Shown piece after piece: positions 1,587 through 51,882 of a stretch of DNA of 64,000 nt. Position numbers and translations under genes: made by a program. Source of the DNA: a virus (lineage: Duplodnaviria; Heunggongvirae; Uroviricota; Caudoviricetes); the IMG/VR virus record IMGVR_UViG_3300014886_000120, one strand, 5' to 3'. The notes beneath the pieces are model-generated. The model had not been told where the DNA came from. It was given only the letters and a program-made list of their open reading frames with translations, and searched no databases. Every line of letters begins with the position of its first letter. The first letter of the stretch is position 1.

Positions 1587-4130
1587 CTACAAGTAAAAGT
1601 CTAGTCTGGACTTTCTCTGTGTATATGTCGAATTGAATACTTCCTTCCATGACGTACCTATCATCTCCAATATATCTTCTACTTTGTTCTTTATAGTCCT
1701 TACTAACATCCTGTCCCTGTCTATCTCTATTGGATATTCAGCTCTTTCAAGATCTGAAGCTTGAAGGAAACCAGCAACGTCAGAAAATATTTCTTTCTTT
1801 ATATGTCTCTTAGACCCCTTCTCTACAGTCAGGTTAAGAACTATCCGTTTGTATCTGTATGGTTTGATGTACACATAAAAGAACCTCTCACCTTCTTCAA
1901 TGTCTAGACCCAGTACTTGTCTTGCAAACTCAAAAGCTTTCAGAGTTACAATAGCCTTGTCATAGGAGTCCCTTGGTTGTCTAAGGATGCCAGTGATAGC
2001 TATTTTCTCCAGTGGATACTTACTCATCATCTCTATCTCTCTTATCACATACTTCTTGATATCCTCTATGGCACTGTCATTAAACACCATGTCAAGTACG
2101 TTACGTTGTACTATCTCAGTAAGCTCAGACTGATCCCTTCTTACCAGCTCTATCCCCTTGTATATTTTCCTGCCATCCACTGTTAGTCCAGCATAACGTT
2201 TCTTTGTGAATATTATTATCCTCTTGAAGTAGTCCTCTATGTCCAGTCTAAAGCTGGACGGATCAATGCTCCACTTCTCTGATATGAACTTATGGAGCTC
2301 CCGATGGATCATGTCCCTTATCCTTGCAGACTCCTCTTTATAGTCCTTGGTTTTAAGTACAAAAGCTATTGAGTCTGTGTCTCCAAATATCACTGTATAC
2401 CCGAAGCTCTCTATTATTTCCTTGATCTTCAGGAGCAATGTTCTACCAATGGTAGTGATGCTCTCAGCTATCTTATAGGAATACAATCTGGCAGCTGGGA
2501 ACTTCTTTTCTACATTACCACTGAAACCATAGAAGCCGTATGAACCATGGACAATGGACTTGAGAGCTAGCCTTCTCCTCTTTAGTCTCTCCACCATGTC
2601 AAAGTCCCTTTCCTTCTTAGCTTTCTCTATCTGTCTTTTGTTTTCTTCAAGTAGGGGAGCTAGCTTGTCAAGTATCTCTACAGTCCAGCTCTTCTCTACC
2701 TCAGGTCTAAGGTATTTCCATTCCGGTGTTACCTCTATTTCTCCAGCTACCTCATCGAATGTGTTCCAGCCAATGTTGAAGCTCTTTATTATGTTCACAT
2801 ACATTGAGCTGAAGTCCATCAAGCATACACTGTTGTATATCCCTCTCTTAGCCTCAAACACTGTAGCTCCAGAATACGACCTCCTAACCTTCTCTATAGG
2901 TCTGGTTCTGAGAGCTATCTTTCCATGAAGCAACCTTAGATAGGAGATGTCAGCCACCCTTGAGGGGTACATGGCATCATTGAAGTCCAGACCGGAGAGT
3001 CTCCTAACAGTGTCAACATATTCTATAAGGTCAAGCTCCTTGTCCAGGTTCTTGATTAAGAGTACGTCTCTAAGGTTGTAGTATATAACATCGAGATATG
3101 AACTGTCCCATACCTTGTCAATGTCAGTATACAGTCTCCTTTTACCATATCCAAGCTCCTTCCTACTAATAGCATCCAGAGTCTGGAACTTCCTTCCTCC
3201 TACAACTATGGAGTATATCTCGTTAAGGTCAAGGTAATGGCATCCCCCTAAGCTTATCTTTTCAGCTGACCATGTAGAGACTGTTCCAATGGAGGAAAGC
3301 ATCCTCACATCCAGCTTGAGCTTCCTCATACGTTTGATAAGGTATGCCATGTCAAACTTAGTAAACGAAATAATAAGGTCTGGATCTATATCTCTCAGAT
3401 ATACTAGGAAAGCTGAGAACATGTCTCTCTCATTTTCATAGTAATGGATATTCCTTGAGGAATACGAGCTCTTATCCTTTCTCCAGTAAAACACATGGTA
3501 TTCCCCCTCAAAGCTATCGTAGCATCCTATGATTATGACCGGAACTTTAGCTTTGTCCTTGGGTACCTTACCGTAACACTCAATGTCTACAAAAAGCTTC
3601 CTTAATGGAGGCTCATAATCCAGAGTACATGCCCTACAGTATTTGTCCGACCATACAATGTATCCCTTAGTCAGCTCAGGATGTTTAAGACACCATTCCA
3701 GATATTTGTCATCTACCTCTACACCGTCAGTAATCCCCTTGTCTATTACATACCTGTATGGAAACTTGATGTCAGCTTCATAGCTTTCTATCCCCCTGGG
3801 ATACCGTTTACTACGTCTATTATACAATGCTACCTTTAGCTCCCTAACGTACTTTGGCAGCTTGGTTATTATCTTGACTCCAGGAGCTGAAGCATCTAAC
3901 AGCCTGAATACTTCTCCATTGGGGCCCTGATGTTCTATCCTCTTTATCTTCTCCAGCTCCTCTGGTCTCCATTTAACATGTTCATAGTCCTCCCTTCTCA
4001 TATAGAAATAGGGTTCAAAGCTGTCGTCTCTTATAATGTATCTCCTGGAGCTTCTGTCTCTACAGAATATGTAGATAACCGATGAACCATGCTCTATCCT
4101 CTGATCAACAGCTGTCACTGCAAGCCTCAT
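1587..4130 (-). CDS. polB: family B DNA polymerase with 3'-5' exonuclease
   Basis: Exo I VDIECY, Exo II FTKFDMAYL, Exo III YYNLRD. Motif A DFSSMYVNII, motif B KSIVHGSYGFYG, motif C IFGDTDS. 847 aa. Confidence 0.9.
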   Translation of the reverse strand: MRLAVTAVDQRIEHGSSVIYIFCRDRSSRRYIIRDDSFEPYFYMRREDYEHVKWRPEELEKIKRIEHQGPNGEVFRLLDASAPGVKIITKLPKYVRELKVALYNRRSKRYPRGIESYEADIKFPYRYVIDKGITDGVEVDDKYLEWCLKHPELTKGYIVWSDKYCRACTLDYEPPLRKLFVDIECYGKVPKDKAKVPVIIIGCYDSFEGEYHVFYWRKDKSSYSSRNIHYYENERDMFSAFLVYLRDIDPDLIISFTKFDMAYLIKRMRKLKLDVRMLSSIGTVSTWSAEKISLGGCHYLDLNEIYSIVVGGRKFQTLDAISRKELGYGKRRLYTDIDKVWDSSYLDVIYYNLRDVLLIKNLDKELDLIEYVDTVRRLSGLDFNDAMYPSRVADISYLRLLHGKIALRTRPIEKVRRSYSGATVFEAKRGIYNSVCLMDFSSMYVNIIKSFNIGWNTFDEVAGEIEVTPEWKYLRPEVEKSWTVEILDKLAPLLEENKRQIEKAKKERDFDMVERLKRRRLALKSIVHGSYGFYGFSGNVEKKFPAARLYSYKIAESITTIGRTLLLKIKEIIESFGYTVIFGDTDSIAFVLKTKDYKEESARIRDMIHRELHKFISEKWSIDPSSFRLDIEDYFKRIIIFTKKRYAGLTVDGRKIYKGIELVRRDQSELTEIVQRNVLDMVFNDSAIEDIKKYVIREIEMMSKYPLEKIAITGILRQPRDSYDKAIVTLKAFEFARQVLGLDIEEGERFFYVYIKPYRYKRIVLNLTVEKGSKRHIKKEIFSDVAGFLQASDLERAEYPIEIDRDRMLVRTIKNKVEDILEMIGTSWKEVFNSTYTQRKSRLDFYL

Positions 4131-14543: not shown

Positions 14544-15044
14544 TTAAGAATGGGATTTCTTATTTAAGCTTTGCTCAAGGGTAGCCTGGGCTATTCTATC
14601 CCTCTTCCTTAAGCACACCCAGAAGGTCTGGGAGCTGTGTTTGGTACGATAGGACACTCTCTGTCCAAACAGGGGAACAAAATAAGCTCCCATGAGGTGG
14701 AGAACCTTTTCCAGGGACATGTCATGAGTATTCCATTTGAATAGCAGGACACCATCGTCCTTCAACACTCTGTGAAACTCTCTAGCTCCCAAGCTAATCA
14801 GCTCCCGTATTTGTTGAAGGGAGAACCTTCCATATAGACTGGCCATAATGCTCTTGGGACCAAGAGACACATGTGGTGGATCAAACACTATCACATCGAA
14901 TATTTTGTCAATGAACGGAAGGTTCTTGTCGTCAGCTAGTATGTCTGGCTTGACCACTCTACGAATGTCTAGGTAGACAGCTTCATTATTCTCCTTGTCA
15001 AACCATATCCCCCTTCTCCCACATGTAGCATCCAGTATCAGCAA
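14544..15044 (-). CDS. small SAM-dependent methyltransferase (N6A/N4C/m2G-type, DPPH motif)
   Basis: Motif I-like LDATCGRRGIW followed by motif IV VFDPPHV; 166 aa. Confidence 0.5.
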   Translation of the reverse strand: MLILDATCGRRGIWFDKENNEAVYLDIRRVVKPDILADDKNLPFIDKIFDVIVFDPPHVSLGPKSIMASLYGRFSLQQIRELISLGAREFHRVLKDDGVLLFKWNTHDMSLEKVLHLMGAYFVPLFGQRVSYRTKHSSQTFWVCLRKRDRIAQATLEQSLNKKSHS

Positions 15045-16947: not shown

Positions 16948-17577
16948 TTAATAAGATGTCAATGGATGGTGTCCCTTTACTTTGAAGACAAGAAAATACC
17001 CATGAGCTGTCTGGGCGTGCTTTTCATTCTTGAACAGTCCAACCAAGGTACGAATATAGACTAACAAGTCTATGAGTTCAAATCTAGTCAAGGAGTCTAT
17101 TATCAGCTTATGGTTCAAGACTAGCTCTCCCTTGTATCGGGTATCCATGATTTTAACTATAAGGAAACCCTCTCTCTTCAACAGGACAGGAGCTATGTTG
17201 TTGAGATCAAAAGCACATTTTTTCTGTAGCTCAATGCTCCATTTAGTCTTTATGGGTGTCCAGTCCTGATCACTACGTTGGTACAGGATGTAGCTGGGTT
17301 TATCATACTTGTATGGAGGATCATAAATTATGGCATCAAAGCTATGCCATGGAAATACACTAGGTAGCTCGGTGATGGGAACATGGAACTGTGCTGGAGA
17401 CTCAGGGTCTATGTCATTGGTTACCACTTCATACCTAAACCTGGCTGCCTTACCAACAGTTTGCCATAGCTTGCCGTGACCGTAGGTTACATCAAGTATC
17501 CTGGCTCCCTCTGGCAGATAGAACTCTAGTATATGTCTGAAGGTGTCAAATTGCTCTCCAAACAAGACAGTTAGCAT
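16948..17577 (-). CDS. small SAM-dependent methyltransferase (DPPY)
   Basis: LDVTYGHGKLW (motif I-like) then IIYDPPYKYDKP (motif IV); 209 aa. Confidence 0.6.
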   Translation of the reverse strand: MLTVLFGEQFDTFRHILEFYLPEGARILDVTYGHGKLWQTVGKAARFRYEVVTNDIDPESPAQFHVPITELPSVFPWHSFDAIIYDPPYKYDKPSYILYQRSDQDWTPIKTKWSIELQKKCAFDLNNIAPVLLKREGFLIVKIMDTRYKGELVLNHKLIIDSLTRFELIDLLVYIRTLVGLFKNEKHAQTAHGYFLVFKVKGHHPLTSY

Positions 17578-18040: not shown

Positions 18041-18604
18041 TTATAGCCTAATGTTTGGATAACCTGGGCCATAGAAGTATGTGATGAGCTCCTTGTGAAC
18101 CATACCGTTGTACTCCTTTAGTACAAAGTCTATGTCATACTCGTCAAAGTCAAACCTATGTCCATAGCTGAACTCTTCATTAATCTCCAGAGCTATGTTG
18201 TAGAATTGATCCCTTATCTTCCTATCATGGCTGGATATCTTGATGGTTACCGAACCATGCTTGTTGTTCAATAGTCCAAGTAGGTTTCTAGCTGTCCCAA
18301 ACAGGAAGCCCACTGGTACCTTATACTTATATCTGGCAGTCTTGAAGAGTCTTATAGCTCTCAGCTGGGAAGTCTGAATGAAGCTGAGGACATCCTCAAT
18401 GGTGTCATACCTCACAGTAACCAGAACTGGATCACAGTACTGAGGCTTAGGCTTGGTTCTGATAACCCGGTAGTGCTCAAGAAACACCCCATACTTTCCC
18501 AGCTCATACGCTATGATCCTGGGGTCTATACAGTACACCAGAAGTTTGGTTACTTTCCCAGGTACTTCAAACCTTGTTGATATAGCTGGTCTTGTCTCAT
18601 TCAA
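18041..18604 (-). CDS. hypothetical protein downstream of the E1-like gene
   Basis: 187 aa, no recognised motif; no E2 HPN motif. Confidence 0.35.
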   Translation of the reverse strand: MNETRPAISTRFEVPGKVTKLLVYCIDPRIIAYELGKYGVFLEHYRVIRTKPKPQYCDPVLVTVRYDTIEDVLSFIQTSQLRAIRLFKTARYKYKVPVGFLFGTARNLLGLLNNKHGSVTIKISSHDRKIRDQFYNIALEINEEFSYGHRFDFDEYDIDFVLKEYNGMVHKELITYFYGPGYPNIRL

Positions 18605-18729
18605 GTTCTTTCACCTCACCTCTATTCTAAATCTTCAGGATACAAAACACTCTATACCATGGAACGCCCAGATTTTTCTACTAATATTTTGGAGCTCTCT
18701 CTTAACTGTCCCCAATTGACGGTACCCCT

Positions 18730-19377
18730 TTATGTTTCCCTAAACAGCCATCTGAGCACAAAGCTGGAACCCTTCTTCCTCCCTGTAAGTAGAAACTCTA
18801 TGGCTGACTCAGCTAGAACAGATGAAGCAAACAACACTAGAGTGGTTGAAAGTGGATAGCTGCATGGATCTACATTTATTGTTTCTGGGTCTGGGGGAGG
18901 AAGATAATTACTAGCCCATTTTACCTCTCCATACTCAGCCTTCCCGTTTATACCTCCAAACAAACATGGTACATTCAGCTTGCATGCATATTCCTTCATT
19001 AGCCTTCTGGACTCATAGTTGTCAAACGTACATATGGTAAGATCTCCAGAAGACAGTACCTCTTCAACATTGCTTTCATTCACTTCTACAAAGTATGTCC
19101 TAGCTCTGGCTTTGTTTATCTGGTAAAGGATGCCAGACAGAGCTCTTACCTTGGACTGGTTAAGGTTCTCTAAAGTAAAGGCTTGGGTAGATGTGTTGTG
19201 CATCTCTACACGATCTTTGTCATACAAAACAAAGCTTGACACTCCACTTCTAGCCAGGATTACTGAAGTCCAGCTACCAAGTGCCCCACAACCAGCTATA
19301 GTAACTGTCTTGTCCCTGAGCTTACTGAACTGTCTTCCCCTATGGAGCTCCTCATGAAGGAACATTCTAGAGACCAT
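18730..19377 (-). CDS. ThiF/MoeB/E1-like adenylyltransferase
   Basis: RQ motif (HRGRQFSKL), Rossmann IAGCGALGS, LYDKDRVEMHN and FDN motifs of E1-like enzymes. 215 aa, with no CxxC zinc motifs. Confidence 0.65.
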   Translation of the reverse strand: MVSRMFLHEELHRGRQFSKLRDKTVTIAGCGALGSWTSVILARSGVSSFVLYDKDRVEMHNTSTQAFTLENLNQSKVRALSGILYQINKARARTYFVEVNESNVEEVLSSGDLTICTFDNYESRRLMKEYACKLNVPCLFGGINGKAEYGEVKWASNYLPPPDPETINVDPCSYPLSTTLVLFASSVLAESAIEFLLTGRKKGSSFVLRWLFRET

Positions 19378-19454
19378 TCAATAGTCCCTCCTAATGAAGG
19401 TTATATTGAAACCTCACATTTTCTGATACATTATGATATATCTCAAACTTCATG

Positions 19455-19471
19455 TATATCCGAGAGATATA
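19455..19471. promoter_or_regulatory. motif 1 copy
   Basis: TATATCCGAGAGATATA in the intergenic region upstream of the E1-like gene. Confidence 0.45.
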
Positions 19472-19518
19472 CAACATGCTTGACCTTATAGAGGAGAGCT
19501 ATGTTACATACCAGACAG

Positions 19519-19803
19519 TCAAAACACTGTACTCTCGTATGTAAGATGTTTATCTAGGACACACCAGTATATCCATTCTTTAAACTCAGCTATTTTCTCA
19601 CAGTCTATACTCACAGCAGAGCCTTTAGATTCATTTTCAATAGAACAATCAAATATTCCTAAACAGCCGTTTCTCTCATGTACCCTTAAGAACTCTTTCT
19701 TAGGTTCAAATATTAGAAACCCATAACGTGTCATTACCTTTACAGCTTTCTTAGTCTCTATCAAATTTATAAGCTCTCCATTACTCCATGTCTTGCTTCT
19801 CAC
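19519..19803 (-). CDS. hypothetical protein
   Basis: 94 aa. Confidence 0.3.
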   Translation of the reverse strand: MRSKTWSNGELINLIETKKAVKVMTRYGFLIFEPKKEFLRVHERNGCLGIFDCSIENESKGSAVSIDCEKIAEFKEWIYWCVLDKHLTYESTVF

Positions 19804-20146
19804 TTCTTATCGTCTCATCCAGGTAAGGGTTCTCCCTCAGTATAGATTCAGCTAGTCTATCTAGCTCACTAGCATAATCTCCCCAATCCTGCTCATCCAA
19901 GTAAGCTCTAAGAATTGGAATCAACAAGCTTGTTCTAATTTTACAATATTCAGGATATTCATTTTTTGACATCTCTTTTAGTCCTCCATTGGTAACTGTC
20001 TCCTTTACGGTAAAGTAGAGTATGGAGAAATACCATAAGCACAAGTTTCTTGTACCAAGCCTTAAGGCTTTCTTTATAGACACACTTGGTGGCAGTACAG
20101 TAGCTTCACCCTCATGATCACTGTACCACAGTATCTTTGTTTCCAT
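19781..20146 (-). CDS. hypothetical protein
   Basis: 121 aa. Confidence 0.3.
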   Translation of the reverse strand: METKILWYSDHEGEATVLPPSVSIKKALRLGTRNLCLWYFSILYFTVKETVTNGGLKEMSKNEYPEYCKIRTSLLIPILRAYLDEQDWGDYASELDRLAESILRENPYLDETIRSEKQDME

Positions 20147-20148
20147 TA

Positions 20149-20430
20149 CTATAGCTTCACCCTTTCTCTTAGCTTCTTCAAGAGCTTAACCTGATAGCTG
20201 TCAGGATGTTCCAGGGACTCTTCTGTTATGAAGTAAGGACACTCTGCACAGTATATCCCATCGTATATGCCCCATGTTCTACCTCTACGGATTAAGCCTA
20301 CTGGACACATTTCGTCTCCAGCCCTAACCTTGACTATCCTCTTTCTAGCCATAGACTCATTCCAGCATATCCCAGTCTTGTTCCCATCCATCTCTATTGT
20401 CTGTTCCACAAAACGCTTGATCTTTATCAT
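20149..20430 (-). CDS. hypothetical protein
   Basis: 93 aa with Cys pairs. Confidence 0.3.
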   Translation of the reverse strand: MIKIKRFVEQTIEMDGNKTGICWNESMARKRIVKVRAGDEMCPVGLIRRGRTWGIYDGIYCAECPYFITEESLEHPDSYQVKLLKKLRERVKL

Positions 20431-20441
20431 TTCTATCCTCT

Positions 20442-21257
20442 CTAGTAGTAGTCATTCTCATGTAGGCCCTCATAAAACTGGTGTTTCACTATAACTATAG
20501 AAGCTAAATCGAAGTCTCTGTCTCTTCCAGATAAGCAAATCCCACTGTCCCTTACAAATAACGAGCTGTCGATGAGTACATTGTCAAGCCTGTCTTTGTA
20601 TCTATATTCTACCTTGTATAAGTCTTTACCCCAGTCCTTCAACGATACAAGCTCAGCTCCTACCAGCCTAAGTGAATATCTAACAAGCTTTTCTAAAGGT
20701 GGAACCATAGAGTCAGCTATAAGCTTCAGGGCCTTCTTGAGCTCTCTTGGTACAGACAATTTGTCCAGAACTGAACTAGTGTCCCTGATGTTCTTACTCT
20801 TAATCTCTTCAAGGACACTCCTAGCTTCCTCCACTATACCATAGTCATACTTACGATGATAGTTCTCAAAGAACAGGTAAGTCCGTTTGCCTCTGTATAC
20901 TCTTGCTACCACTGGTTCCAAGACAGACAGAGATGGACTGAACAGTAATGGTAGGGGAGCTGAGTATGGCACATGCCTCCTGTAATGATGCTCTATAGAA
21001 GGGATACACATCCAGTATCTCGTCCTAAGAACTGGAAACACATACACTCTCGGGAGCTCAAGCTTGTCATAGTACTCATTTCTTTCATGTATCTCTGCTT
21101 CTCTCTCTGGTACAGCATATATACCGTTCTCTCTAAACCATAAGACTCCACAATTTTCTGGTGTACATCCCTTTAGGATGAACTCTCTGGCTCCAGACCT
21201 GTCAAGCTTAACTACCTTCCTGCTTCCAGGAAGCACATGACTGATAAACAATTTCAT
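20442..21257 (-). CDS. hypothetical protein (271 aa)
   Basis: Long ORF; ATGA overlap with the upstream zinc-finger gene. Confidence 0.4.
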   Translation of the reverse strand: MKLFISHVLPGSRKVVKLDRSGAREFILKGCTPENCGVLWFRENGIYAVPEREAEIHERNEYYDKLELPRVYVFPVLRTRYWMCIPSIEHHYRRHVPYSAPLPLLFSPSLSVLEPVVARVYRGKRTYLFFENYHRKYDYGIVEEARSVLEEIKSKNIRDTSSVLDKLSVPRELKKALKLIADSMVPPLEKLVRYSLRLVGAELVSLKDWGKDLYKVEYRYKDRLDNVLIDSSLFVRDSGICLSGRDRDFDLASIVIVKHQFYEGLHENDYY

Positions 21258-21436
21258 AGCTCACCAGCAACCATACATTCATAGCTGCAATAAGTCACTA
21301 TCACATACCCTATAAGCTGTCCATGATGATCCAGGATAGGCTCAGAATTTACATTTATACCCTTAAGACGTTCAACCCTCTTGCCACAATAATGGCATAG
21401 GAAAATAGACTTGCTTTCTTCAGGCATAAACCTCAC
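21254..21436 (-). CDS. small zinc-finger protein
   Basis: CHYCGK...CSYEC; terminal GGT GAG CTA TGA embeds the SD and start of the next gene. Confidence 0.4.
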   Translation of the reverse strand: MRFMPEESKSIFLCHYCGKRVERLKGINVNSEPILDHHGQLIGYVIVTYCSYECMVAGEL

Positions 21437-21448
21437 TTTGGTAAATGT

Positions 21449-21733
21449 TCAGGCATCCCTAAATTTCCTAGCTAGACTCTGTCCAGAAGAAAAGCTAGGC
21501 CAGAACAATATCCCTCCAATATAGCTACCGATGTACTTAAGAGGGTTATACTCCAATGGAACACCTTTAAGCAAACCTATGAATGATGCAGATACCATAA
21601 GCACTAGAAGGGTCAGCCCAAGGATAATAGCCAGTCTCCTTTTCAGCTCGTATATGAATCCCCCAATTACACCTATGCACATCCATTCCATTGTCTGGAC
21701 AAGATTATAAAAAAACAGAGTCCATAGCTCCAC
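21449..21733 (-). CDS. small membrane protein
   Basis: Multiple hydrophobic helices. Confidence 0.35.
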   Translation of the reverse strand: MELWTLFFYNLVQTMEWMCIGVIGGFIYELKRRLAIILGLTLLVLMVSASFIGLLKGVPLEYNPLKYIGSYIGGILFWPSFSSGQSLARKFRDA

Positions 21734-21736
21734 TGT

Positions 21737-22174
21737 TTACCCCTCATTTAAACGTACTTTCATTGCACCCAGATCTTTAAGGGATATGGCAAACACCAGG
21801 TATTCACCTTTCCTCCTAAGGTAGACATGTTCTAAGCCACACTTCAGACACTTACCAGTGTCTCCTTTAGTTAGATGTGAGTACGAAGAATGAAACAAGA
21901 CGTTAGAACTGCACCTGTAGCATTCTATTGTGTAGTAATAGTCATCAGGAGTGAGAGCTCCAAATGGATCATCGTCTATCTCCACACGTTTGGACTTGAG
22001 CTTAGTGTGATACTCCATCATTGAACAAAAGTTGTCATCAAAGAACTTACATCTCTTACATACGTCATGTGGGAATGAACCGAACAATCCTCTCCTGGAG
22101 CTAATGGGACATTTACCAACCACCATAGTCACTGTTTTCAGCTTAAGGGGTCTAGAAACTAGGCGTGTCTTCAT
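21737..22174 (-). CDS. zinc-finger protein
   Basis: CKRCKF...CYRC...CLKCG. Confidence 0.35.
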   Translation of the reverse strand: MKTRLVSRPLKLKTVTMVVGKCPISSRRGLFGSFPHDVCKRCKFFDDNFCSMMEYHTKLKSKRVEIDDDPFGALTPDDYYYTIECYRCSSNVLFHSSYSHLTKGDTGKCLKCGLEHVYLRRKGEYLVFAISLKDLGAMKVRLNEG

Positions 22175-22213
22175 GTTTACACCTGCTTATACGTAATTAA
22201 ACACTGCCCATGT

Positions 22214-22471
22214 CTACTTGGGCTTACTACATAGCTTGCTATTGGGGAATTTACCCTTGTCGTACACACCTAAGCTTGGTATCCATCCACAATTGATACA
22301 CCTAGGTCTTCCTGGACATCCCAGCAAAGACGCACTAATCAAATCCACAGGTATGGATACCAAGTACCCTCCACATTTTGGACATGTCCCTAGAATGGCA
22401 GCTTGGGTAACATAGCCTCTTCCGTCAATAAATACAGGGCCAATACCAGGTATGAAAGACATTTGTACCAA
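22214..22471 (-). CDS. small zinc-finger protein
   Basis: CPKCGG...CINCG. Confidence 0.3.
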   Translation of the reverse strand: MVQMSFIPGIGPVFIDGRGYVTQAAILGTCPKCGGYLVSIPVDLISASLLGCPGRPRCINCGWIPSLGVYDKGKFPNSKLCSKPK

Positions 22472-22615
22472 GACAGATATACACCTCCTATGACAGGAAT
22501 TTTACTCCCCTCTTACATTTTGGACAGTACCAGCCTCTAAGTGCATCCTTATGGAACAAAGGCTTAAGGCTTGTTTTGCACCTTGGACATTTCCTTGACA
22601 TATGCTCCTCAGTCC

Positions 22616-22837
22616 TCACTGAGAGTTCATAAGTGCCCCTAGCCTGCTTCTGATGCTGTTCATCTTAGCAATGTGTGTCATGGTTCTTCTCTTGAAGAAT
22701 GAGCTGACACCTTTTAATGGTTCATGCTTCATAGACACCAAGTTTAGTAGAGTAGCTACTTCATGATCAAACCTTAGCTCTTCAATTATTGAATCGATTT
22801 CACAGAGTACATTCACTTCTCCAGTCTTATCCTCCAT
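22616..22837 (-). CDS. hypothetical protein
   Basis: 73 aa. Confidence 0.3.
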   Translation of the reverse strand: MEDKTGEVNVLCEIDSIIEELRFDHEVATLLNLVSMKHEPLKGVSSFFKRRTMTHIAKMNSIRSRLGALMNSQ

Positions 22838-22878: not shown

Positions 22879-24333
22879 TTATTTTGAAGATATCCAGTAC
22901 ATAGGTTTCTTAGTATACTCTGGCCTGGTAGGTGGGACAGTACTCATTATCTCAGCTACAACCCTGGATGGAGAGCTCTCCCCTATCAATGCAACTATCT
23001 GGTCTACAGAATACTGGTCTACCTTCTCTATTGTCACTCTCTCATAGTTTATACCAGCTCTCTCCAGTCCTCTCCTGAAGTACGAATCTCTGCCAGTATT
23101 GATTCCCAGAATTATAACCTTTGGCTTGAAGGTAAGTTTGGAGTATTCATCAACAAACCTTGGAGGATGGTTCTCAGCTTCGTCGGTTATGAGAACCAGA
23201 GTGTCACATGTATCATTGAGCATCCTCATGAGCTGCAGTCCAGCTCCCAGTGGTGTCCATCCTCCAGTCCTTAGCAGAGAGAATGCTTCCCTCCACCCGG
23301 TAGGTGAATAGTCTACTGGAACTACCTTGACTGGACTCTCTCCAACTGCATATACTGAGGGAGGCTCCTTACATGCCAGAGTCAATGCAGTAGCTAGCAT
23401 TCTTCCAGCTTCGATGGCTGGTTGCATAGAGCCAGAGACATCAATGTGTATGGACACTCTAACGTCTAGCTTGCTGGTGTTCCTGGACTTTAGTACTATG
23501 GTGTTCTCAAGAAGCTTAAACAGCTCGTATGGCACCTTAGCTGGATCAAGATAGGATAGAATGTTGAGTATCCTTGATGCACTTACCCGTTTATCACTAA
23601 GAGCAGCTTCTATCTTACCCTTTATGATGTCCATGTTAGGCTTAATAGCTCTGAACCTACCAAGCATGTTTAAGGACTGTAAAAGCTCATTTGGAGTCAT
23701 TCCCTTTATTAGAGCTCTCAGTATCTCTGGAGTCCTTACCTTGATAGTTGTCAGAGCTATGTAGGATGGAACCGGAAGCTTACTGAGTATCTCAGCTACC
23801 CTATTGGGGTCTTCCTCCTCTCTAAGCTCTCTGAAAGCTTTCCTAACGGTTCCAGTCCTCTTGAACAGCTCTTCACCTATAAGCTTGAAGTTAGGATTAG
23901 ATGATCTGTCTGTAGGAATGTGTAGGGCTCTCACAATATATAGGAGTTCCTTCTTAGAACGTAGAATGTAGCTAACAAGCCTCCTATAGCTAAGTTCAGC
24001 TAAGTAATGTTTCACAGCTGATCTAAGACTTCTGGTCTTCCTTGCATGATAGACAACTTGATAGACTAGCCTAAGTGGTAGCTTCTGGAGTAGAGCCCAT
24101 CCAATATCTCTCAGCTGGCTCTCATCAGCTTCCATGAGTGTCTTTACGAAAGCTACCTTGTGATCTCTGACAGTTCCATTCTCTATGTACCAGCTGGCAA
24201 ATCTGGAATAGAATAGAGGATTAACATCCTTGACCTGTCTATGAACCCCAAATATCTCATCCAGATTGCCATGTGGACAGTTCATGATAGCAGAGAACAT
24301 CTGGAGGTTAGCTGATGCTTGTTCGTTACTCAT
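22879..24333 (-). CDS. vWA-domain protein with helical N-terminal region, possibly Ro60/TROVE-like
   Basis: C-terminal MIDAS motif HIDVSGSM...GGWTPLGAG...LITDEAEN. About 290-aa alpha-helical N-terminal region, 484 aa total. This matches the TROVE+vWA layout. The TROVE call is an inference. Confidence 0.55.
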   Translation of the reverse strand: MSNEQASANLQMFSAIMNCPHGNLDEIFGVHRQVKDVNPLFYSRFASWYIENGTVRDHKVAFVKTLMEADESQLRDIGWALLQKLPLRLVYQVVYHARKTRSLRSAVKHYLAELSYRRLVSYILRSKKELLYIVRALHIPTDRSSNPNFKLIGEELFKRTGTVRKAFRELREEEDPNRVAEILSKLPVPSYIALTTIKVRTPEILRALIKGMTPNELLQSLNMLGRFRAIKPNMDIIKGKIEAALSDKRVSASRILNILSYLDPAKVPYELFKLLENTIVLKSRNTSKLDVRVSIHIDVSGSMQPAIEAGRMLATALTLACKEPPSVYAVGESPVKVVPVDYSPTGWREAFSLLRTGGWTPLGAGLQLMRMLNDTCDTLVLITDEAENHPPRFVDEYSKLTFKPKVIILGINTGRDSYFRRGLERAGINYERVTIEKVDQYSVDQIVALIGESSPSRVVAEIMSTVPPTRPEYTKKPMYWISSK

Positions 24334-24363: not shown

Positions 24364-24599
24364 GTCTATCCATAAACAGCTCTTGGCCTAACAAGGATAG
24401 CCTCTTCTGTCTTGTCTATACAGTACTCATTGCTGTCAAGCTCTATGTTGGCTACTTCACTAACGTAGCTAAAAATCTCCTCGTCACTAGCTTCCTTAAG
24501 GGAGCTATCCACTTTAAGAGAGGTACTCTCTCCTCTACTAACTATCCTAAGCTCTACTTCCGGCAACTTATCACTCTCCTTACATTTTATATTTTGTCT

Positions 24600-30885: not shown

Positions 30886-31476
30886 TCAAGTTCTCTCCCA
30901 TATGGTTACTACTCTTACCCTCCTATTTGTTCCAGTCAACAACAAGATATGGCCAGAAAGTTTCCATAGCTCTTTAGAGTAAATAGGAACAATCGTATCC
31001 AGCCATACTAGAAATCCTCCTGGTTCCGTAATATAGGCAACATCTCTTACCACTTTAGCTTTTGAGAACGGCTTAGTACCATATCTTTCAAAGTCTCGTT
31101 TCTCGTAAGGAGGATCAGCTATCACCAAATCAAATTGTCCCTTAGAAAAATACTTTAGTAAATCTCTCACATCCCCAACTACATCTGGATTAAGGTTTGG
31201 GTTGATATCAAAAGTAATTCCTTGTTTGTCCCTGACAGTTCCAGAAAATAGGTGAAGTATTCTATGCTTGTCTGGAAATAGGGCATAAACTCTTTCTAGA
31301 TATGAAGGAGGATATTCTCCATAATATCCCTCTTTTCTTTGATAGTTGTGTCCTATTTGCCATATGCCATAAATCCTCCAGGATACCCCTAGCTCATGAG
31401 TGTAGTCCTTGAAGATTCGTTTGTAGTTTCTTACTCTGTCCTGTAAAGTCATTCTTCCAAATCTAGTCTGACACAT
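30886..31476 (-). CDS. small SAM-dependent methyltransferase (DPPY)
   Basis: DLVIADPPYEKRD motif IV with an upstream glycine-rich SAM loop. Confidence 0.55.
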   Translation of the reverse strand: MCQTRFGRMTLQDRVRNYKRIFKDYTHELGVSWRIYGIWQIGHNYQRKEGYYGEYPPSYLERVYALFPDKHRILHLFSGTVRDKQGITFDINPNLNPDVVGDVRDLLKYFSKGQFDLVIADPPYEKRDFERYGTKPFSKAKVVRDVAYITEPGGFLVWLDTIVPIYSKELWKLSGHILLLTGTNRRVRVVTIWERT

Positions 31477-32754: not shown

Positions 32755-32815
32755 CTCTCAGCTAGCTCAGCTCACATCACGTCTCAGGTGCTGGCCTATT
32801 CATCATCAGGTGTCT

Positions 32816-33619
32816 CTATTCCTTCTTAAACACCAAGATATACTCATGAGCCTTACTGGTATATTTCATCCTGTCACACTTGGATATCTGGGTCCATACA
32901 AAGGGGCTTCTTAATACTGAAATAACTATGTCCCATGGAGTGAAGCTGTTCTTTGCAGCAAGCTCTATCGTGTCCTTATGGAGAATCCTAAAGCCTTCCT
33001 TCCTAAAGTCAGCTACTACAAATATACAGAACTTACCAGGCTTAAGGACTCTGTAACAGTTGGATAATGCTTCATCTATCCTAACCAGATATTCGTCATA
33101 AGTCTTACAGTCTGAGAGCTGACCTTCTACACTTTCATATTTTTCAAGGTTCCAGTACGGAGGACAAGTAAATACTAAATCAACAGAGCTATTAGCTGAA
33201 TGTTCAAGCTTACATCCATCTGCATTGTACAATATGTAGTCTCCCGTAGATGAAGTTAATAGAGTACTTCTACTCTTGACCTTATCTAGGAAGGAACTAG
33301 CAATACTGAACATTCTTGGTGAGATGTCATATCCAATATAGGTTCTCTCAAGCTCTATAGCTACAGCTCCTCTAATACCCCATCCCATGAATGGATCAAG
33401 GATAATATCTCTTTTCTTACTCCAGTATTTAATCACAAAGGATGATAGTCCATAAGAGAACTTTGAATACTTTAGCCCTGGAAGGTATTTACTACTTGAG
33501 CTTCTCTTACACATGTCTATGGTCAAATAGCTATCTATCTCTCTCCATCTTTTAGGTACATTCTCAAAAGTCATTACAGACTTAGGTAGGAAGCCGTACT
33601 TCTCTTTTACAGTTGGCAA
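32816..33619 (-). CDS. SAM-dependent DNA methyltransferase (CPPY)
   Basis: Motif I DPFMGWGIRG and motif IV FTCPPYWN; 267 aa. Confidence 0.6.
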   Translation of the reverse strand: MPTVKEKYGFLPKSVMTFENVPKRWREIDSYLTIDMCKRSSSSKYLPGLKYSKFSYGLSSFVIKYWSKKRDIILDPFMGWGIRGAVAIELERTYIGYDISPRMFSIASSFLDKVKSRSTLLTSSTGDYILYNADGCKLEHSANSSVDLVFTCPPYWNLEKYESVEGQLSDCKTYDEYLVRIDEALSNCYRVLKPGKFCIFVVADFRKEGFRILHKDTIELAAKNSFTPWDIVISVLRSPFVWTQISKCDRMKYTSKAHEYILVFKKE

Positions 33620-39018: not shown

Positions 39019-39263
39019 AAGAGCTCGTTATGCTCTAGATACTTTTTCTCCCACTTCCCTCTCCTGATGCATATGTACACCTCTCTAGACACAAACTTTC
39101 TAATTGCAGCTAAGATTTGTTCTCGATATGTACGTTTAGAAAGGCCTATAACTATATTGCCCTCAGCATCCAACGTTATATACTCAAGCCTGGCAAACAC
39201 AGTTATCTCGTCCATTCTAGTCCAACCTCCTATAATGAATAGTCCTTCATGGACACTACACAT
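39015..39263 (-). CDS. hypothetical protein
   Basis: 82 aa; 4-nt overlap with the downstream gene. Confidence 0.3.
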   Translation of the reverse strand: MCSVHEGLFIIGGWTRMDEITVFARLEYITLDAEGNIVIGLSKRTYREQILAAIRKFVSREVYICIRRGKWEKKYLEHNELF

Positions 39264-40516: not shown

Positions 40517-40533
40517 CTACACTACCTCCTAAG

Positions 40534-51123: not shown

Positions 51124-51882
51124 TTAATACAAGTACACAGTTGAACCTTTAGTCTTGGTCTTAAACCCACTCCTATAACCATAGTCATACCTATAATCGT
51201 AATAGTAGAAGCCATAGTCACCAATCTCCCTTATGCCTCTGGATGTTATCTGATAGAGACAGTTGGTCTCTGGTTTAAAGGTCAACACATTAGAGAACTT
51301 GCCCAGTCTCTTACCAAATATTCTGCATCCATCCTTAAGAGCTGACTCTGTACTAGCAAACACTAGAGCCTTATGTGGAATATACCCTACTGGAGATGGA
51401 TTGTGGTTAGACCATAGGAATATAGACCTTGGATTATCCCTCTTACATAGTGCTATAGCAGCTGTCCCCCTTATTTCATCCAAAGCTTTAGTCAACCCGT
51501 ATCTCTCTATGTAGGAGAGGATAATCTCTGAGTCTACTTGACCTATATACTCATACTTGGATAGTCTCTGGCTATATATGATACCATTATGCACCAGAAT
51601 CCAACGCTTCGAGTACAAGGGATGGTTGTTATGTGGGTTCTTAGGAGTACCTTGGGTAGCTTGCCTAGTGTGTAGCAACGTTATATAACCAAATCGTTTA
51701 GGGAAGATACTGAGCTTGACGAATATAGAGGCTCTCACTGGAGCTTTAACTATGGTGCCGTTAGTGTATATCCCAGTTGCATCTTTCCCTCGATACTCTA
51801 TCTCTAGCAACAGTTGTCTGGCAAGTCTTCTAGCTTCTCTCTGGGTTAATCCCAGGTTAAGGAAACCAGCTATCCCACACAT
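51124..51882 (-). CDS. class-II (Ntn) glutamine amidotransferase domain protein
   Basis: N-terminal MCGIAG nucleophile-cysteine motif typical of AsnB/PurF/GlmS-type GATase II; 252 aa stand-alone. Confidence 0.65.
   Translation of the reverse strand: MCGIAGFLNLGLTQREARRLARQLLLEIEYRGKDATGIYTNGTIVKAPVRASIFVKLSIFPKRFGYITLLHTRQATQGTPKNPHNNHPLYSKRWILVHNGIIYSQRLSKYEYIGQVDSEIILSYIERYGLTKALDEIRGTAAIALCKRDNPRSIFLWSNHNPSPVGYIPHKALVFASTESALKDGCRIFGKRLGKFSNVLTFKPETNCLYQITSRGIREIGDYGFYYYDYRYDYGYRSGFKTKTKGSTVYLY

What the first reader, a model, noticed from the sequence alone, without database searches (positions are those of the whole stretch)
18041..20146. Orphan ThiF/E1-like adenylyltransferase without a recognisable Ubl, E2 or JAB partner
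The 215-aa protein has the full E1-like signature (RQ, GxGxxG, D-x-D-x-VE-x-HN, DN) but no CxxC zinc site. The flanking small genes (187, 94, 121 and 93 aa) carry no recognisable motifs, and none ends in Gly-Gly. Viral E1-like enzymes are rare and often belong to Ub-like conjugation or anti-defense systems. This one may use a host SAMP/Ubl or act with the unknown neighbours.
Basis: partly seen in the sequence, partly recalled or inferred. Interest (0 to 1): 0.6.

Follow-up and report, generated by a model that had tools for sequence, protein, structure and literature searches.

The report
Ro60-linked ubiquitin-like activation module
The "orphan" E1-like enzyme in this archaeal virus is the last gene of a conserved, apparently undescribed four-gene module: a small ubiquitin-like protein ending in Tyr-Gly, a Ro60-type RNA-binding ring protein, an unknown cysteine protein, and the E1. 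The same module is common in cyanobacteria, where it sits next to tRNA mimics and a ribosomal-RNA mimic.

Summary
Window 18730-19377(-) encodes a 215-aa ThiF/E1-like protein (Pfam E=4.8e-26) with intact ATP-binding residues, no CxxC zinc site, and neighbours with no recognisable families.

The "orphan" interpretation is wrong.
- Ubl: 66 aa, 24366-24566. All 46 distinct homologues examined end in Tyr/Phe-Gly followed by the stop codon.
- Ro60-like TROVE+vWA protein: 484 aa, 22879-24333.
- Protein X: 271 aa, 20442-21257, with tandem OB folds and an invariant Cys241.
- E1: invariant Cys172.

The 93/121/94/187-aa neighbours are lineage-specific insertions.

The cassette occurs in about 229 species genomes (the 80 inspected are almost all cyanobacteria), other bacteria, a 595-kb huge phage and a small clade of archaeal viruses. 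In cyanobacteria it also carries two tRNA-like RNAs with hypervariable "anticodons", a mimic of the 23S L11-binding domain, often an L7/L12 paralogue, and sometimes long tRNA arrays.

Most likely the E1 adenylates its own Ubl within a Ro60-centred system for surveillance of RNA and the translation apparatus. Whether X acts like an E2 is inferred only; fold searches did not support membership of the E2 family. I found no description of the module in the searchable literature.

The parts
24366..24566 (-). Ubl-like small protein (66 aa, TTG start), beta-beta-alpha-beta-beta, ending ...VRPRAVYG followed by the stop codon. Proposed substrate of the E1.
   Evidence: Homologues lie at the head of the cassette in bacterial and viral loci. 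All 46 distinct sequences end in (Y/F)G followed by the stop codon. The family has 1125 clusters and no Pfam domain. Invariant residues are D28, P61, Y65 and G66. The AF2 model has pLDDT 86.5. All top Foldseek hits are beta-grasp folds, but the statistics are weak: E 0.05-0.3, TM about 0.5.
22879..24333 (-). Ro60-like protein (484 aa): helical TROVE-like region plus a C-terminal vWA domain with an intact MIDAS site.
   Evidence: The family profile hits human RO60 9nen (E=1e-9), Thermus phage phiRo60 9kop/9l5y (E about 1e-7, query positions 25-393) and D. radiodurans Rsr 2nvo (8e-5). D298, S300, S302, T360 and D384 are invariant. Pfam sees only VWA_2/VWA_CoxE; Pfam TROVE is not detected. Homologues are 45-60% identical in related viral loci and 26-30% in bacteria.
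21254..22837 (-). Insertion slot 1: six small lineage-specific ORFs (73, 43, 85, 145, 94, 60 aa) between the Ro60-like gene and X. Not part of the conserved module.
   Evidence: ORFs are listed. No homologues were found in L001-L005 or L091. In bacteria this interval is variable, from -10 to 2244 nt.
20442..21257 (-). Protein X (271 aa): N-terminal tandem OB-fold-like beta domain, helical linker, and a small C-terminal alpha/beta domain carrying invariant Cys241 and Asp250 (motif GICLSGRDRDFDLxS). Candidate thioester acceptor or partner of the E1.
19519..20430 (-). Not part of the conserved module.
   Evidence: No family hits and no homologues in related loci. The same slot holds an Acb5 anti-CBASS homologue in L004, 4.4 kb of other genes in L091 and 2.6 kb in the huge phage.
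18730..19377 (-). Minimal E1-like adenylyltransferase (215 aa). ATP-binding residues are intact, Cys172 is invariant, there is no zinc site, and Thr64 replaces the canonical Arg.
   Evidence: Pfam ThiF E=4.8e-26. Family invariants are H8, E9, R13, G29, G31, A32, G34, D53, D55, E58, N61, T64, Q65, K76, D119, N120, R124 and C172. C172 aligns with the crossover-loop Cys of canonical enzymes. It is below all NCBIfam equivalog cutoffs.
18041..18604 (-). 187-aa ORF downstream of the E1. Lineage-specific and not part of the conserved module.
   Evidence: No family hits. No homologue in related loci.

Best explanation
The 215-aa protein is a genuine minimal E1-like enzyme. It serves a dedicated 66-aa beta-grasp-type Ubl encoded 5 kb upstream.

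Shown:
- The four genes (Ubl ending in Tyr/Phe-Gly, Ro60-like TROVE-vWA protein, protein X, E1) form one co-oriented module that has been inherited together. It is found in cyanobacteria, other bacteria, a huge phage and this clade of archaeal tailed viruses.
- In the viruses the module is loosened by insertions of small accessory genes.

Inferred mechanism:
1. The E1 binds ATP using GxGxxG, D53, K76, D119 and R13, and adenylates the free C-terminal Gly66 of the Ubl.
2. The invariant crossover-loop Cys172 takes the Ubl as a thioester.
3. The Ubl passes to invariant Cys241 of protein X, whose gene is usually directly adjacent to the E1 gene or overlaps it. X would then act as a functional E2 analogue. 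Alternatively X is itself the target.
4. X, through its tandem OB folds, and the Ro60-like ring, through its central cavity and MIDAS site, bring the reaction to an RNA or ribonucleoprotein.

Inferred biological role: surveillance, repair or protection of the translation apparatus. In cyanobacteria the module is hard-wired to two tRNA-like RNAs, a mimic of the 23S L11-binding domain, L7/L12 paralogues and stress-induced tRNA arrays. The virus would use the protein core of the module to keep translation or RNA metabolism running, or to reprogram it, during infection. One possibility is defence against host RNA-targeting systems.
For: Module and co-inheritance:
- E1-anchored loci and X-anchored loci show the same gene order.
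- X occurs with E1 in 81 of 90 loci, and all four genes occur in 51 of 90 loci within +-6 kb.
- 48 of 51 complete cassettes have all four genes on one strand, and the median X-to-E1 gap is 9 nt.
- All four proteins diverge in parallel between viral and bacterial copies: E1 44-54% vs 31-37% identity, X 40-52% vs 24-30%, Ro60-like 45-51% vs 26-30%, Ubl 36-44% vs 23-30%.

Ubl:
- A terminal Gly directly before the stop codon in 46 of 46 distinct sequences.
- AF2 gives a beta-beta-alpha-beta-beta fold at pLDDT 86.5.
- Only beta-grasp folds appear among the top hits.

E1:
- Catalytic residues are invariant, and C172 aligns with the canonical E1 Cys.

Protein X:
- Only Cys241 and Asp250 are invariant across 100 diverse members.
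- The N-terminal half is OB-like.

Ro60-like protein:
- Profile hits to Ro60, phiRo60 and Rsr, with an intact MIDAS site.

RNA context:
- tRNA-like genes lie upstream of the Ro60-like gene in 59 of 71 loci, against 2 loci with one downstream of E1.
- Their 'anticodon' is hypervariable within an otherwise conserved cloverleaf.
- The GAC mimic occurs in 49 loci, always on the cassette strand and upstream of X.
- An L7/L12 paralogue occurs in 11 loci.
- tRNA arrays are adjacent in L007, L009, L018, L090 and the huge phage.

Literature:
- Bacterial and phage Ro60 proteins work with adjacent tRNA-like Y RNAs (PMC4201824, PMC12135203).
- Cyanobacterial long tRNA arrays are induced by translational stress and co-regulated with rtcB (PMC8421152).
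Against: - No biochemical data exist.
- The Ubl fold-search statistics are weak: E>=0.05 for a 66-residue domain.
- Thr64 replaces an Arg that is near-universal in E1 enzymes and contacts the ATP phosphates (my knowledge of MoeB/ThiF structures). The chemistry could therefore differ from that of a canonical E1.
- The window lacks every RNA element of the cyanobacterial cassette. ARAGORN, an Rfam scan of the whole window and nhmmer were all negative. The RNA-centred role is therefore extrapolated from relatives.
- No target, E3 or deconjugating enzyme is identified.
Confidence: 0.6

Rival explanations
1. Sulfur-carrier system. The E1 adenylates the small protein so that it becomes a C-terminal thiocarboxylate, as in ThiS/ThiF, MoaD/MoeB, TtuB/TtuC and Urm1/Uba4. 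The sulfur would then be used to thiolate tRNA or the tRNA-like RNAs, with the X cysteine acting as a persulfide relay.
For: - The best NCBIfam scores are to short ThiF models.
- The best family-profile hit in the PDB is the tRNA-modifying enzyme TcdA, and Uba4 is close behind.
- C172 aligns with the ThiF/MoeB crossover-loop Cys.
- The context is rich in tRNA and tRNA-like RNAs.
Against: - The penultimate residue is Tyr or Phe in 46 of 46 sequences. All characterised sulfur carriers end in Gly-Gly (my knowledge).
- I saw no recurrent protein family with a rhodanese, cysteine desulfurase or PP-loop thiolase domain inside the cassette.
- The E1 is below all ThiF/MoeB equivalog cutoffs and lacks the zinc site.
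- The link to Ro60 is left unexplained.
Confidence: 0.13
2. The E1 is orphan and charges a host SAMP or ubiquitin-like protein, or works with its immediate small neighbours (187, 94, 121 and 93 aa).
For: - A preprint on Asgard viruses interpreted ThiF/E1-like genes of Nidhogg viruses as hijacking host ubiquitin systems (10.1101/2021.07.29.454249).
- No E2 or JAB is recognisable among the cassette genes or the four neighbours.
Against: - A dedicated Ubl co-occurs with this E1 family across domains of life.
- The immediate neighbours are absent from all related loci.
- Most carriers of the module are cyanobacteria, which lack eukaryote-like ubiquitin systems (my knowledge).
Confidence: 0.04
3. 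Anti-defence effector. In the virus, the module conjugates its Ubl to a host immune protein to inactivate it, or mimics that protein. An example would be interference with Cap2-type E1-E2 signalling in CBASS.
For: - An Acb5 (anti-CBASS cGAMP nuclease) homologue sits between X and E1 in L004.
- The slots between the cassette genes behave like accessory-gene hotspots in the viruses.
- The E1 domain scores about 1e-14 against PADLOC Cap2 models.
Against: - Acb5 is present in only one locus and sits in the variable slot.
- The module is mainly chromosomal in cyanobacteria, with a fixed RNA partner set. That points to a cellular RNA-centred function.
- The similarity to Cap2 is limited to the generic E1 fold.
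- This reading does not exclude the best explanation; it concerns the purpose of the module in the virus.
Confidence: 0.1
4. The E1-like protein acts directly on RNA, as a TcdA-like ATP-dependent dehydratase or adenylating enzyme. The small protein would be only an RNA-binding or regulatory beta-grasp (TGS-like) subunit, not an E1 substrate.
For: - TcdA is marginally the best PDB hit for the family profile (E=1.3e-19).
- One UniRef entry names the small protein 'TGS domain-containing'.
- The context is rich in RNA elements.
Against: - The C-terminal aromatic-Gly directly before the stop codon is invariant, which is the signature of an E1 substrate.
- The TcdA equivalog score is far below its cutoff: 37 bits against 304.
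- UBA6, MccB and Uba1 score almost the same as TcdA.
Confidence: 0.06

Closest known systems
Bacterial Ubl conjugation operons: Bil (BilABCD), Bub, and type II CBASS Cap2/Cap3
   Same: A stand-alone or fused E1-like adenylating enzyme encoded beside its own beta-grasp substrate with a terminal Gly. These are mobile modules found in bacteria and viruses.
   Different: - No JAB or DUB and no recognisable UBC-type E2.
- The Ubl is a single 66-aa domain ending in Tyr/Phe-Gly.
- The fixed partners are a Ro60-like RNA-binding protein and an OB-fold cysteine protein.
- RNA genes are part of the cassette.
- A survey of bacterial Ubl operons (PMC11601603) contains none of my search terms vWA, Ro60, tRNA or cyanobacteria.
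Archaeal SAMP/UbaA and Thermus TtuB/TtuC (E1 + Ubl without an E2)
   Same: A minimal two-component E1/Ubl core with no canonical E2 or E3. TtuB/TtuC and Urm1/Uba4 are linked to tRNA biology.
   Different: - Those Ubls end in Gly-Gly and also act as sulfur carriers.
- Their E1s keep the zinc site and the Arg of NxxRQ.
- The UbaA equivalog score here is 43 bits against a cutoff of 450.
- None is linked to Ro60.
Ro60/Rsr-Y RNA systems (rsr-yrlA-rtcB operons; Thermus phage phiRo60)
   Same: A TROVE+vWA ring protein encoded next to tRNA-mimicking non-coding RNAs. Found in bacteria and phages, and linked to RNA damage, RNA repair and stress.
   Different: - The 484-aa protein is a divergent member. 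Pfam TROVE does not detect it, and it is recognised only by a family profile.
- No known Ro60 system includes an E1, a Ubl or protein X.
- The window copy has no detectable Y-like RNA.
ThiF/MoeB cofactor-biosynthesis adenylyltransferases
   Same: The same Rossmann-type adenylation fold and the same ATP-binding residues. The best NCBIfam scores go to short ThiF models.
   Different: - Below all equivalog cutoffs (92 bits against 159; 74.5 against 275).
- No CxxC zinc site.
- Thr replaces the canonical Arg.
- No thiamine or molybdopterin genes are nearby.
- The partner ends in Tyr-Gly, not Gly-Gly.
E1-like and Ro60 genes reported in 'Nidhogg' Helarchaeota viruses (Rambo et al., preprint 10.1101/2021.07.29.454249)
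   Same: Archaeal tailed viruses from sediments that encode both ThiF/E1-like proteins and a Ro60 (TROVE+vWA) protein. This is probably the same or a related module.
   Different: The paper treats the two as separate features: E1 as hijacking of host ubiquitin, and Ro60 as binding Y RNA. It reports no viral Ubl, no protein X and no link to cyanobacterial cassettes. I did not test whether this window belongs to that virus group.

Membership tests
ThiF/E1-like superfamily (Pfam PF00899) | Profile match above the Pfam gathering score | tested here: met
   91.8 bits against 28.1, E=4.8e-26.
ThiF/E1-like superfamily (Pfam PF00899) | Nucleotide-binding GxGxxG, ribose-binding Asp, Lys, and Mg-binding Asp of the 'DN' motif | tested here: met
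   G29, G31, G34, D53, K76, D119 and N120 are invariant in the family and aligned with canonical enzymes.
ThiF/E1-like superfamily (Pfam PF00899) | Arg of the 'SNLxRQ' motif, which contacts the ATP phosphates | tested here: not met
   Thr64 occupies this position and is invariant in the family.
ThiF/E1-like superfamily (Pfam PF00899) | Conserved Cys in the crossover loop (thioester or persulfide site) | tested here: met
   C172 is invariant and aligns with the Cys of 'PTCDTAGV' in MoeB/MoeZ-type homologues. Its catalytic role was not tested.
ThiF / MoeB / UbaA / TcdA equivalogs (NCBIfam) | Score at or above the curated equivalog cutoff | tested here: not met
   PRK08644 92 bits against 159; TIGR02356 74.5 against 275; MoeB 56 against 449; UbaA 43 against 450; TcdA 37 against 304.
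ThiF / MoeB type | Two CxxC motifs that bind structural zinc | tested here: not met
   Both are absent: one is deleted and the other lies beyond the C-terminus.
Ubiquitin-like E1 substrate (beta-grasp with C-terminal Gly) | Free C-terminal glycine | tested here: met
   All 46 distinct homologues end in (Y/F)G followed by the stop codon. Y65 and G66 are invariant.
Ubiquitin-like E1 substrate (beta-grasp with C-terminal Gly) | Beta-grasp fold | tested here: inconclusive
   The AF2 model is beta-beta-alpha-beta-beta at pLDDT 86.5. All top Foldseek hits are beta-grasp folds (protein G/L, UBLs, SUMO, PB1), but E is 0.05-0.3 and TM about 0.5.
Ubiquitin-like E1 substrate (beta-grasp with C-terminal Gly) | Genomic linkage to an E1 | tested here: met
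   All four genes occur in 51 of 90 loci within +-6 kb. The linkage is also seen in archaeal viruses and in a huge phage.
Ubiquitin-like E1 substrate (beta-grasp with C-terminal Gly) | ATP-dependent adenylation or thioester formation by the E1 | not testable with these tools
   Needs biochemistry.
UBC/E2 fold (for protein X) | Structural or sequence match to UBC, RWD or Prok-E2 families | tested here: not met
UBC/E2 fold (for protein X) | Invariant catalytic Cys in a loop after a four-strand beta-meander | tested here: met
   C241 is one of only two invariant residues in 100 diverse members. It lies in the loop after strands 202-237 and before helix 251-262. I saw no HPN motif in the consensus.
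Ro60/TROVE family (for the 484-aa protein) | Homology to solved Ro60 proteins across TROVE and vWA | tested here: met
   Profile hits: RO60 1e-9; phiRo60 about 1e-7 over query positions 25-393; Rsr 8e-5.
Ro60/TROVE family (for the 484-aa protein) | Pfam TROVE domain | tested here: not met
   Only VWA_2 and VWA_CoxE were detected at E<=1 in 11 members.
Ro60/TROVE family (for the 484-aa protein) | Adjacent Y RNA or tRNA-like RNA gene | tested here: inconclusive
   Present in 59 of 71 related loci and in the viral relatives L001, L004, L091 and L095. None was detected in the window. Binding was not tested.

The most novel reading that the evidence does not exclude
The module may be a ubiquitin-like tagging system whose target is an RNA or a ribonucleoprotein rather than a free protein. 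One version: the E1-activated C-terminal Gly of the Ubl is transferred, via X, onto the 3'-CCA end of the cassette's tRNA-like RNAs, giving an aminoacylation-like protein-RNA conjugate. Another version: the Ubl is transferred onto ribosomal-stalk components assembled on the L11-domain rRNA mimic, with the Ro60-like ring as the platform. This would be a new class of Ubl chemistry shared by cyanobacteria, huge phages and archaeal viruses.
Probability: 0.1. Interest if true: 0.92.

Novelty: new variant of a known kind. Interest (0 to 1): 0.72.

Why it matters
- It turns an apparently isolated viral E1 into a defined module that can be tested: Ubl, Ro60-like protein, Cys protein X and E1. The module has hundreds of natural variants and culturable hosts such as Nostoc and Anabaena.
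- I found no earlier report linking ubiquitin-like activation to Ro60/Y-RNA biology and to the ribosomal GTPase-associated centre. If confirmed, this would be a new output for prokaryotic Ubl systems, namely quality control or protection of RNA and the translation apparatus.
- It offers a new handle on the long-unclear function of the Ro60 vWA/MIDAS domain.
- It changes how E1-like genes in Asgard-type archaeal viruses should be read. They have been taken as evidence that the viruses hijack eukaryote-like host ubiquitin systems. The module is more likely a self-contained cassette of prokaryotic type, shared with cyanobacteria and huge phages.

Tried and rejected
1. The four immediate neighbours as partners. 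They have no Pfam, PHROG, NCBIfam or PADLOC hits and are not conserved in any related locus. Rejected.
2. Nucleotide similarity of the region to sequenced phages. None found.
4. Firm assignment of the E1 to a known E1 subfamily. The score distribution is flat.
5. A Y RNA, tRNA-like RNA or GAC-like RNA in the window. All of these were negative: ARAGORN, Rfam on 17-27 kb, Rfam on the whole window, and nhmmer with viral tRNA-like and cyanobacterial GAC profiles. The first nhmmer attempts failed on a format flag and were repeated.
6. A second E1-like gene in the window. None found.
7. Counterparts in the window of the cyanobacterial 241-aa protein and the L7/L12 paralogue. None found.
9. Literature searches for a link between TROVE/Ro60 and ThiF, E1 or Ubl. 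The only co-mention is the Asgard-virus preprint. Burroughs & Aravind 2016 (NAR, RNA repair systems) did not appear in any search and was not read.
Full report
**1. Observation**

The region holds five minus-strand ORFs of 187, 215, 94, 121 and 93 aa at the stated coordinates. The 215-aa product (18730-19377) is a clear ThiF/E1-like protein: Pfam PF00899 at E=4.8e-26, 91.8 bits against a gathering score of 28.1. The four small neighbours hit nothing in Pfam, PHROGs, NCBIfam or PADLOC, and none ends in Gly-Gly.

The genomic setting is an archaeal-type tailed virus or virus-like element. All genes are on one strand. The window encodes family-B DNA polymerase, a terminase nuclease domain, ATP-dependent DNA ligase, a Rad51/RadA-like protein, an ERCC4 nuclease and a KaiC-like ATPase.

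**2. Anatomy of the E1**

A family alignment, and an alignment with canonical MoeB/MoeZ-type homologues, show the following.
- Invariant ATP-site residues: G29, G31, A32, G34, D53, D55, E58, N61, Q65, K76, D119, N120 and R124.
- An invariant N-terminal H8-E9...R13.
- An invariant Cys172 (motif DPCxYPL). It aligns with the crossover-loop Cys of canonical enzymes ('PTCDTAGV').
- Both CxxC zinc motifs are missing.
- The Arg of the canonical 'SNLxRQ' motif is replaced by an invariant Thr64. The HMMER alignment to MccB shows the same substitution.

The protein is below every NCBIfam equivalog cutoff; the best is the short ThiF model PRK08644 at 92 bits against 159. The family profile scores TcdA, UBA6, MccB, Uba1, MoeB, Uba4, SAE2 and ThiF within a narrow band of E=1e-19 to 1e-15. 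It is therefore a separate E1 clade and not a MoeB/ThiF cofactor enzyme.

**3. The E1 is not orphan**

The E1 has about 15 close homologues of 212-250 aa. Their contigs share two genes with the window: homologues of the 484-aa protein (22879-24333) and of the 271-aa protein 'X' (20442-21257). In L001-L003 the X gene ends 4 nt before the E1 gene.

X has distant homologues in Chlorogloeopsis, in another bacterial contig and in hydrothermal-sediment contigs. Every one of these shows the same order: a 65-66-aa gene, a gene of about 480 aa, X, then a ThiF gene of about 212 aa.

The small gene also exists in the window, at 24366-24566, directly upstream of the 484-aa gene. All 46 distinct homologues collected end in Tyr/Phe-Gly followed by the stop codon.

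A scan of one genome per species found 229 relatives of X. The 80 fetched loci are almost all cyanobacterial. The co-occurrence and spacing figures are:

| Measure | Value |
|---|---|
| Loci with X and E1 | 81 of 90 |
| Loci with all four genes within +-6 kb | 51 of 90 |
| Complete cassettes with all genes on one strand | 48 of 51 |
| Median X-to-E1 gap | 9 nt |

The four proteins diverge in parallel between viral and bacterial copies, as expected for a unit inherited together:

| Protein | Identity to window, viral copies | Identity to window, bacterial copies |
|---|---|---|
| E1 | 44-54% | 31-37% |
| X | 40-52% | 24-30% |
| Ro60-like | 45-51% | 26-30% |
| Ubl | 36-44% | 23-30% |

The cassette is also present in:
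- an IMG/VR viral contig related to the window (L091);
- a 595-kb huge phage (LR756511.1);
- at least one cyanobacterial plasmid. X was found on two plasmids, and the annotated Dolichospermum region also carries the E1. There the genes are annotated only as 'hypothetical protein' and 'ThiF family adenylyltransferase'.

In the viruses the intervals Ro60-like-to-X and X-to-E1 hold variable inserts:
- window: six and three small ORFs;
- L091: 4.4 kb between X and E1;
- huge phage: 2.6 kb between X and E1;
- L004: an Acb5 anti-CBASS homologue between X and E1.

**4. The partners**

- *Ubl.* The family has 1125 clusters and no Pfam domain. D28, P61, Y65 and G66 are invariant. The AF2 model is beta-beta-alpha-beta-beta at pLDDT 86.5. 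Every top Foldseek hit is a beta-grasp fold (protein G/L, hPLIC-2 UBL, SUMO, PB1, FAF1 UBL, EccD Ubl), but the statistics are weak at E 0.05-0.3. Because the terminal Gly is translated directly before the stop codon, no processing protease is needed. An aromatic-Gly terminus resembles Atg8 and Atg12 rather than the Gly-Gly of sulfur carriers (my knowledge).
- *484-aa protein.* The family profile hits human RO60 (1e-9), Thermus phage phiRo60 (about 1e-7, nearly full length) and Rsr (8e-5). The vWA MIDAS residues D298, S300, S302, T360 and D384 are invariant. Pfam TROVE itself does not detect the protein. It is a divergent Ro60-like protein.
- *Protein X.* The family has 1034 clusters at 50% identity. 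Only Cys241 and Asp250 are invariant across 100 diverse members. No sequence profile recognises it.
  - The C-terminal part is a helix, a four-strand meander, the Cys241 loop and a helix. This is reminiscent of a minimal UBC fold, but no E2 was retrieved. Membership of the E2 family is not supported, and the E2-like role is an inference.

**5. RNA context (found in passing, but it shapes the functional reading)**

Rfam and ARAGORN show that bacterial cassettes contain one tRNA-like gene just upstream of the Ubl gene and another between the Ubl and Ro60-like genes. Of the 71 loci with the Ro60-like gene, 59 have at least one of these, against 2 loci with a tRNA downstream of E1.

These are two conserved paralogous RNAs. 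Only their 'anticodon' varies freely (CTA, CTT, TCT, AGT, TTA, and 2- or 4-nt loops). Sequence entropy peaks exactly there, within an otherwise near-invariant cloverleaf flanked by AAGCUU...AAGCUU. This is the behaviour expected of YrlA-type Y RNAs, the tRNA-mimicking partners of Ro60 (PMC4201824; phiRo60, PMC12135203).

A further element of about 60 nt lies between Ro60-like and X in 49 cyanobacterial loci, always on the cassette strand. It matches Rfam LSU-rRNA model positions about 1093-1148 (52-55 bits). As far as I recall the E. coli 1051-1108 sequence, this region is the 58-nt L11-binding GTPase-associated centre.

Other recurring features:
- Eleven loci add an L7/L12 paralogue (Pfam 7.8e-24), and 35 add an unknown 241-aa protein.
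- Several cassettes abut long tRNA arrays: L007 (about 22-27 tRNAs), L009, L018, L090 and the huge phage.
- Such arrays in cyanobacteria spread horizontally. They are induced by translational stress and co-regulated with an HNH endonuclease and rtcB (PMC8421152). An HNH gene and rtcB are seen near L009 and L006.

The window has none of these RNAs. The viral relatives L001, L004, L091 and L095 keep a tRNA-like gene next to the Ubl gene.

**6. Mechanism**

*Shown:* a four-gene module that has been inherited together, and an E1 with its catalytic residues and a conserved Cys intact. Also shown are a small protein with an invariant free terminal Gly, a Cys-bearing OB-fold protein whose gene usually abuts or overlaps the E1 gene, and a Ro60-like protein with an intact MIDAS site.

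*Inferred:*
- The E1 adenylates Ubl Gly66.
- Cys172 forms a thioester with the Ubl.
- The Ubl is transferred to Cys241 of X (an E2 analogue), or X is itself the target.
- The OB folds of X and the Ro60-like ring direct the reaction to an RNA or ribonucleoprotein of the translation apparatus.

In the virus the protein core of the module probably maintains or reprograms RNA metabolism and translation during infection. An anti-defence purpose is compatible with this and is not excluded.

*Confidence:*

| Claim | Confidence |
|---|---|
| The E1 belongs to this module and has its own Ubl | about 0.9 |
| The Ubl is adenylated by the E1 | about 0.75 |
| X carries the Ubl as an E2-like thioester | about 0.35 |
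| The module works on RNA or the translation apparatus | about 0.5 |

**7. Comparison with known systems, and novelty**

The E1/Ubl core resembles the Bil, Bub and CBASS-Cap2 operons and the SAMP/UbaA and TtuB/TtuC pairs. It differs from them in several ways:
- It lacks a JAB and a recognisable E2.
- It lacks the zinc site and the canonical Arg.
- Its Ubl ends in Tyr/Phe-Gly.
- It is tied to a Ro60-like protein and to RNA mimics.

The only literature link I found is the Asgard-virus preprint. It reports ThiF/E1-like genes and a Ro60 gene in Nidhogg viruses as separate features and interprets the E1s as hijacking host ubiquitin. Searches combining TROVE or Ro60 with ThiF, E1 or Ubl found nothing else. 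Papers on cyanobacterial tRNA arrays and on bacterial Ubl operons contain none of the search terms I tried for these genes. One likely source, Burroughs & Aravind 2016, did not appear in any search and was not read.

I therefore rate the module a new variant of a known kind: Ubl activation with new partners and a probable new target class.

**8. Verdict**

The E1 is real and unusual. 'Orphan' is wrong. The finding leads to a widespread, apparently undescribed Ro60-linked Ubl module. Interest 0.72.

Noticed in passing
L013:731-805 and 2414-2488; L029:1730-1804 and 2961-3035; similar positions in about 55 other loci: Two conserved paralogous tRNA-like RNAs flank the Ubl gene in bacterial cassettes. 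The cloverleaf is nearly invariant, but the 'anticodon' is hypervariable (CTA, CTT, TCT, AGT, TTA, 2- and 4-nt loops). The upstream type often encodes a 3' CCA. Both are flanked by AAGCUU...AAGCUU. They are probably YrlA-like Y RNAs, or decoys for anticodon-targeting enzymes.
   Followed up: partly
L006:7883-7938; L029:5651-5706; L019:5646-5714; 49 loci in all: An element of about 60 nt matches Rfam LSU-rRNA model positions about 1093-1148. As far as I recall the E. coli 1051-1108 sequence, this is the L11-binding GTPase-associated centre, helices 43/44. It lies between the Ro60-like gene and X, always on the cassette strand. It is absent from the window and from the archaeal-virus loci.
   Followed up: partly
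L063:2397-2789; L013:2554-2946 (11 loci); L040:2289-3014 (35 loci): A ribosomal protein L7/L12 paralogue (Pfam Ribosomal_L12, 7.8e-24) and an unknown 241-aa protein recur between the Ubl and Ro60-like genes of cyanobacterial cassettes. Together with the rRNA mimic, this suggests a link to the ribosomal stalk.
   Followed up: partly
L007:2511-4744; L009:1-1813; L018:109-935; L095:15706-18700: Long tRNA gene arrays of 8 to about 27 genes lie immediately next to the cassette in some bacteria and in the 595-kb huge phage. L009 has an HNH endonuclease between the array and the Ubl gene, as described for stress-induced cyanobacterial 'L-arrays'.
   Followed up: partly
L004:5420-6004: A 194-aa gene with a precomputed Pfam PF26761 hit (Acb5, an anti-CBASS cGAMP nuclease) sits between X and E1 in a related archaeal-virus contig. 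The local Pfam copy did not reproduce the hit.
   Followed up: partly
window 18730-19377 (residue 64): This whole E1 clade has Thr where canonical E1s have the ATP-contacting Arg of 'SNLxRQ'. The functional consequence is unknown.
   Followed up: partly
window 32755-32810 (-): Sub-threshold Rfam match to an archaeal C/D-box sRNA (snoPyro_CD): 31.8 bits against a gathering score of 45, E=0.01. It lies in an intergenic position of the viral genome.
   Followed up: no
window 51904-53520 and 51124-51882 (-): A phiEco32-like COOH-NH2 ligase (Pfam PF14395, 7.7e-22) lies next to an ORF that looks like a class-II glutamine amidotransferase by eye. This may be a peptide- or amide-ligation system.
   Followed up: no
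window 39230-41748 (-): A pair of genes: a MoxR-like AAA+ ATPase (identified by eye; Pfam gives only a weak Sigma54_activat hit) and a DUF2201 metallopeptidase plus VWA-like protein (4.5e-32 and 9.4e-19). This is a second vWA-containing system in the same virus.
   Followed up: no
window 14544-15044, 16948-17577, 30886-31476, 32816-33619 (-): Several apparent DNA methyltransferase genes are scattered through the window. 16948-17577 hits PHROG DNA methyltransferase families (7.8e-16). The others were judged from sequence only.
   Followed up: no
P0018, P0022, P0027, P0029 (MoeB/MoeZ-type homologues in alignment A8): The canonical E1-like proteins retrieved as distant homologues carry a conserved C-terminal extension of about 90 aa (…VLCGKNAVQ…DGR.IV.G…). 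I did not identify it.
   Followed up: no
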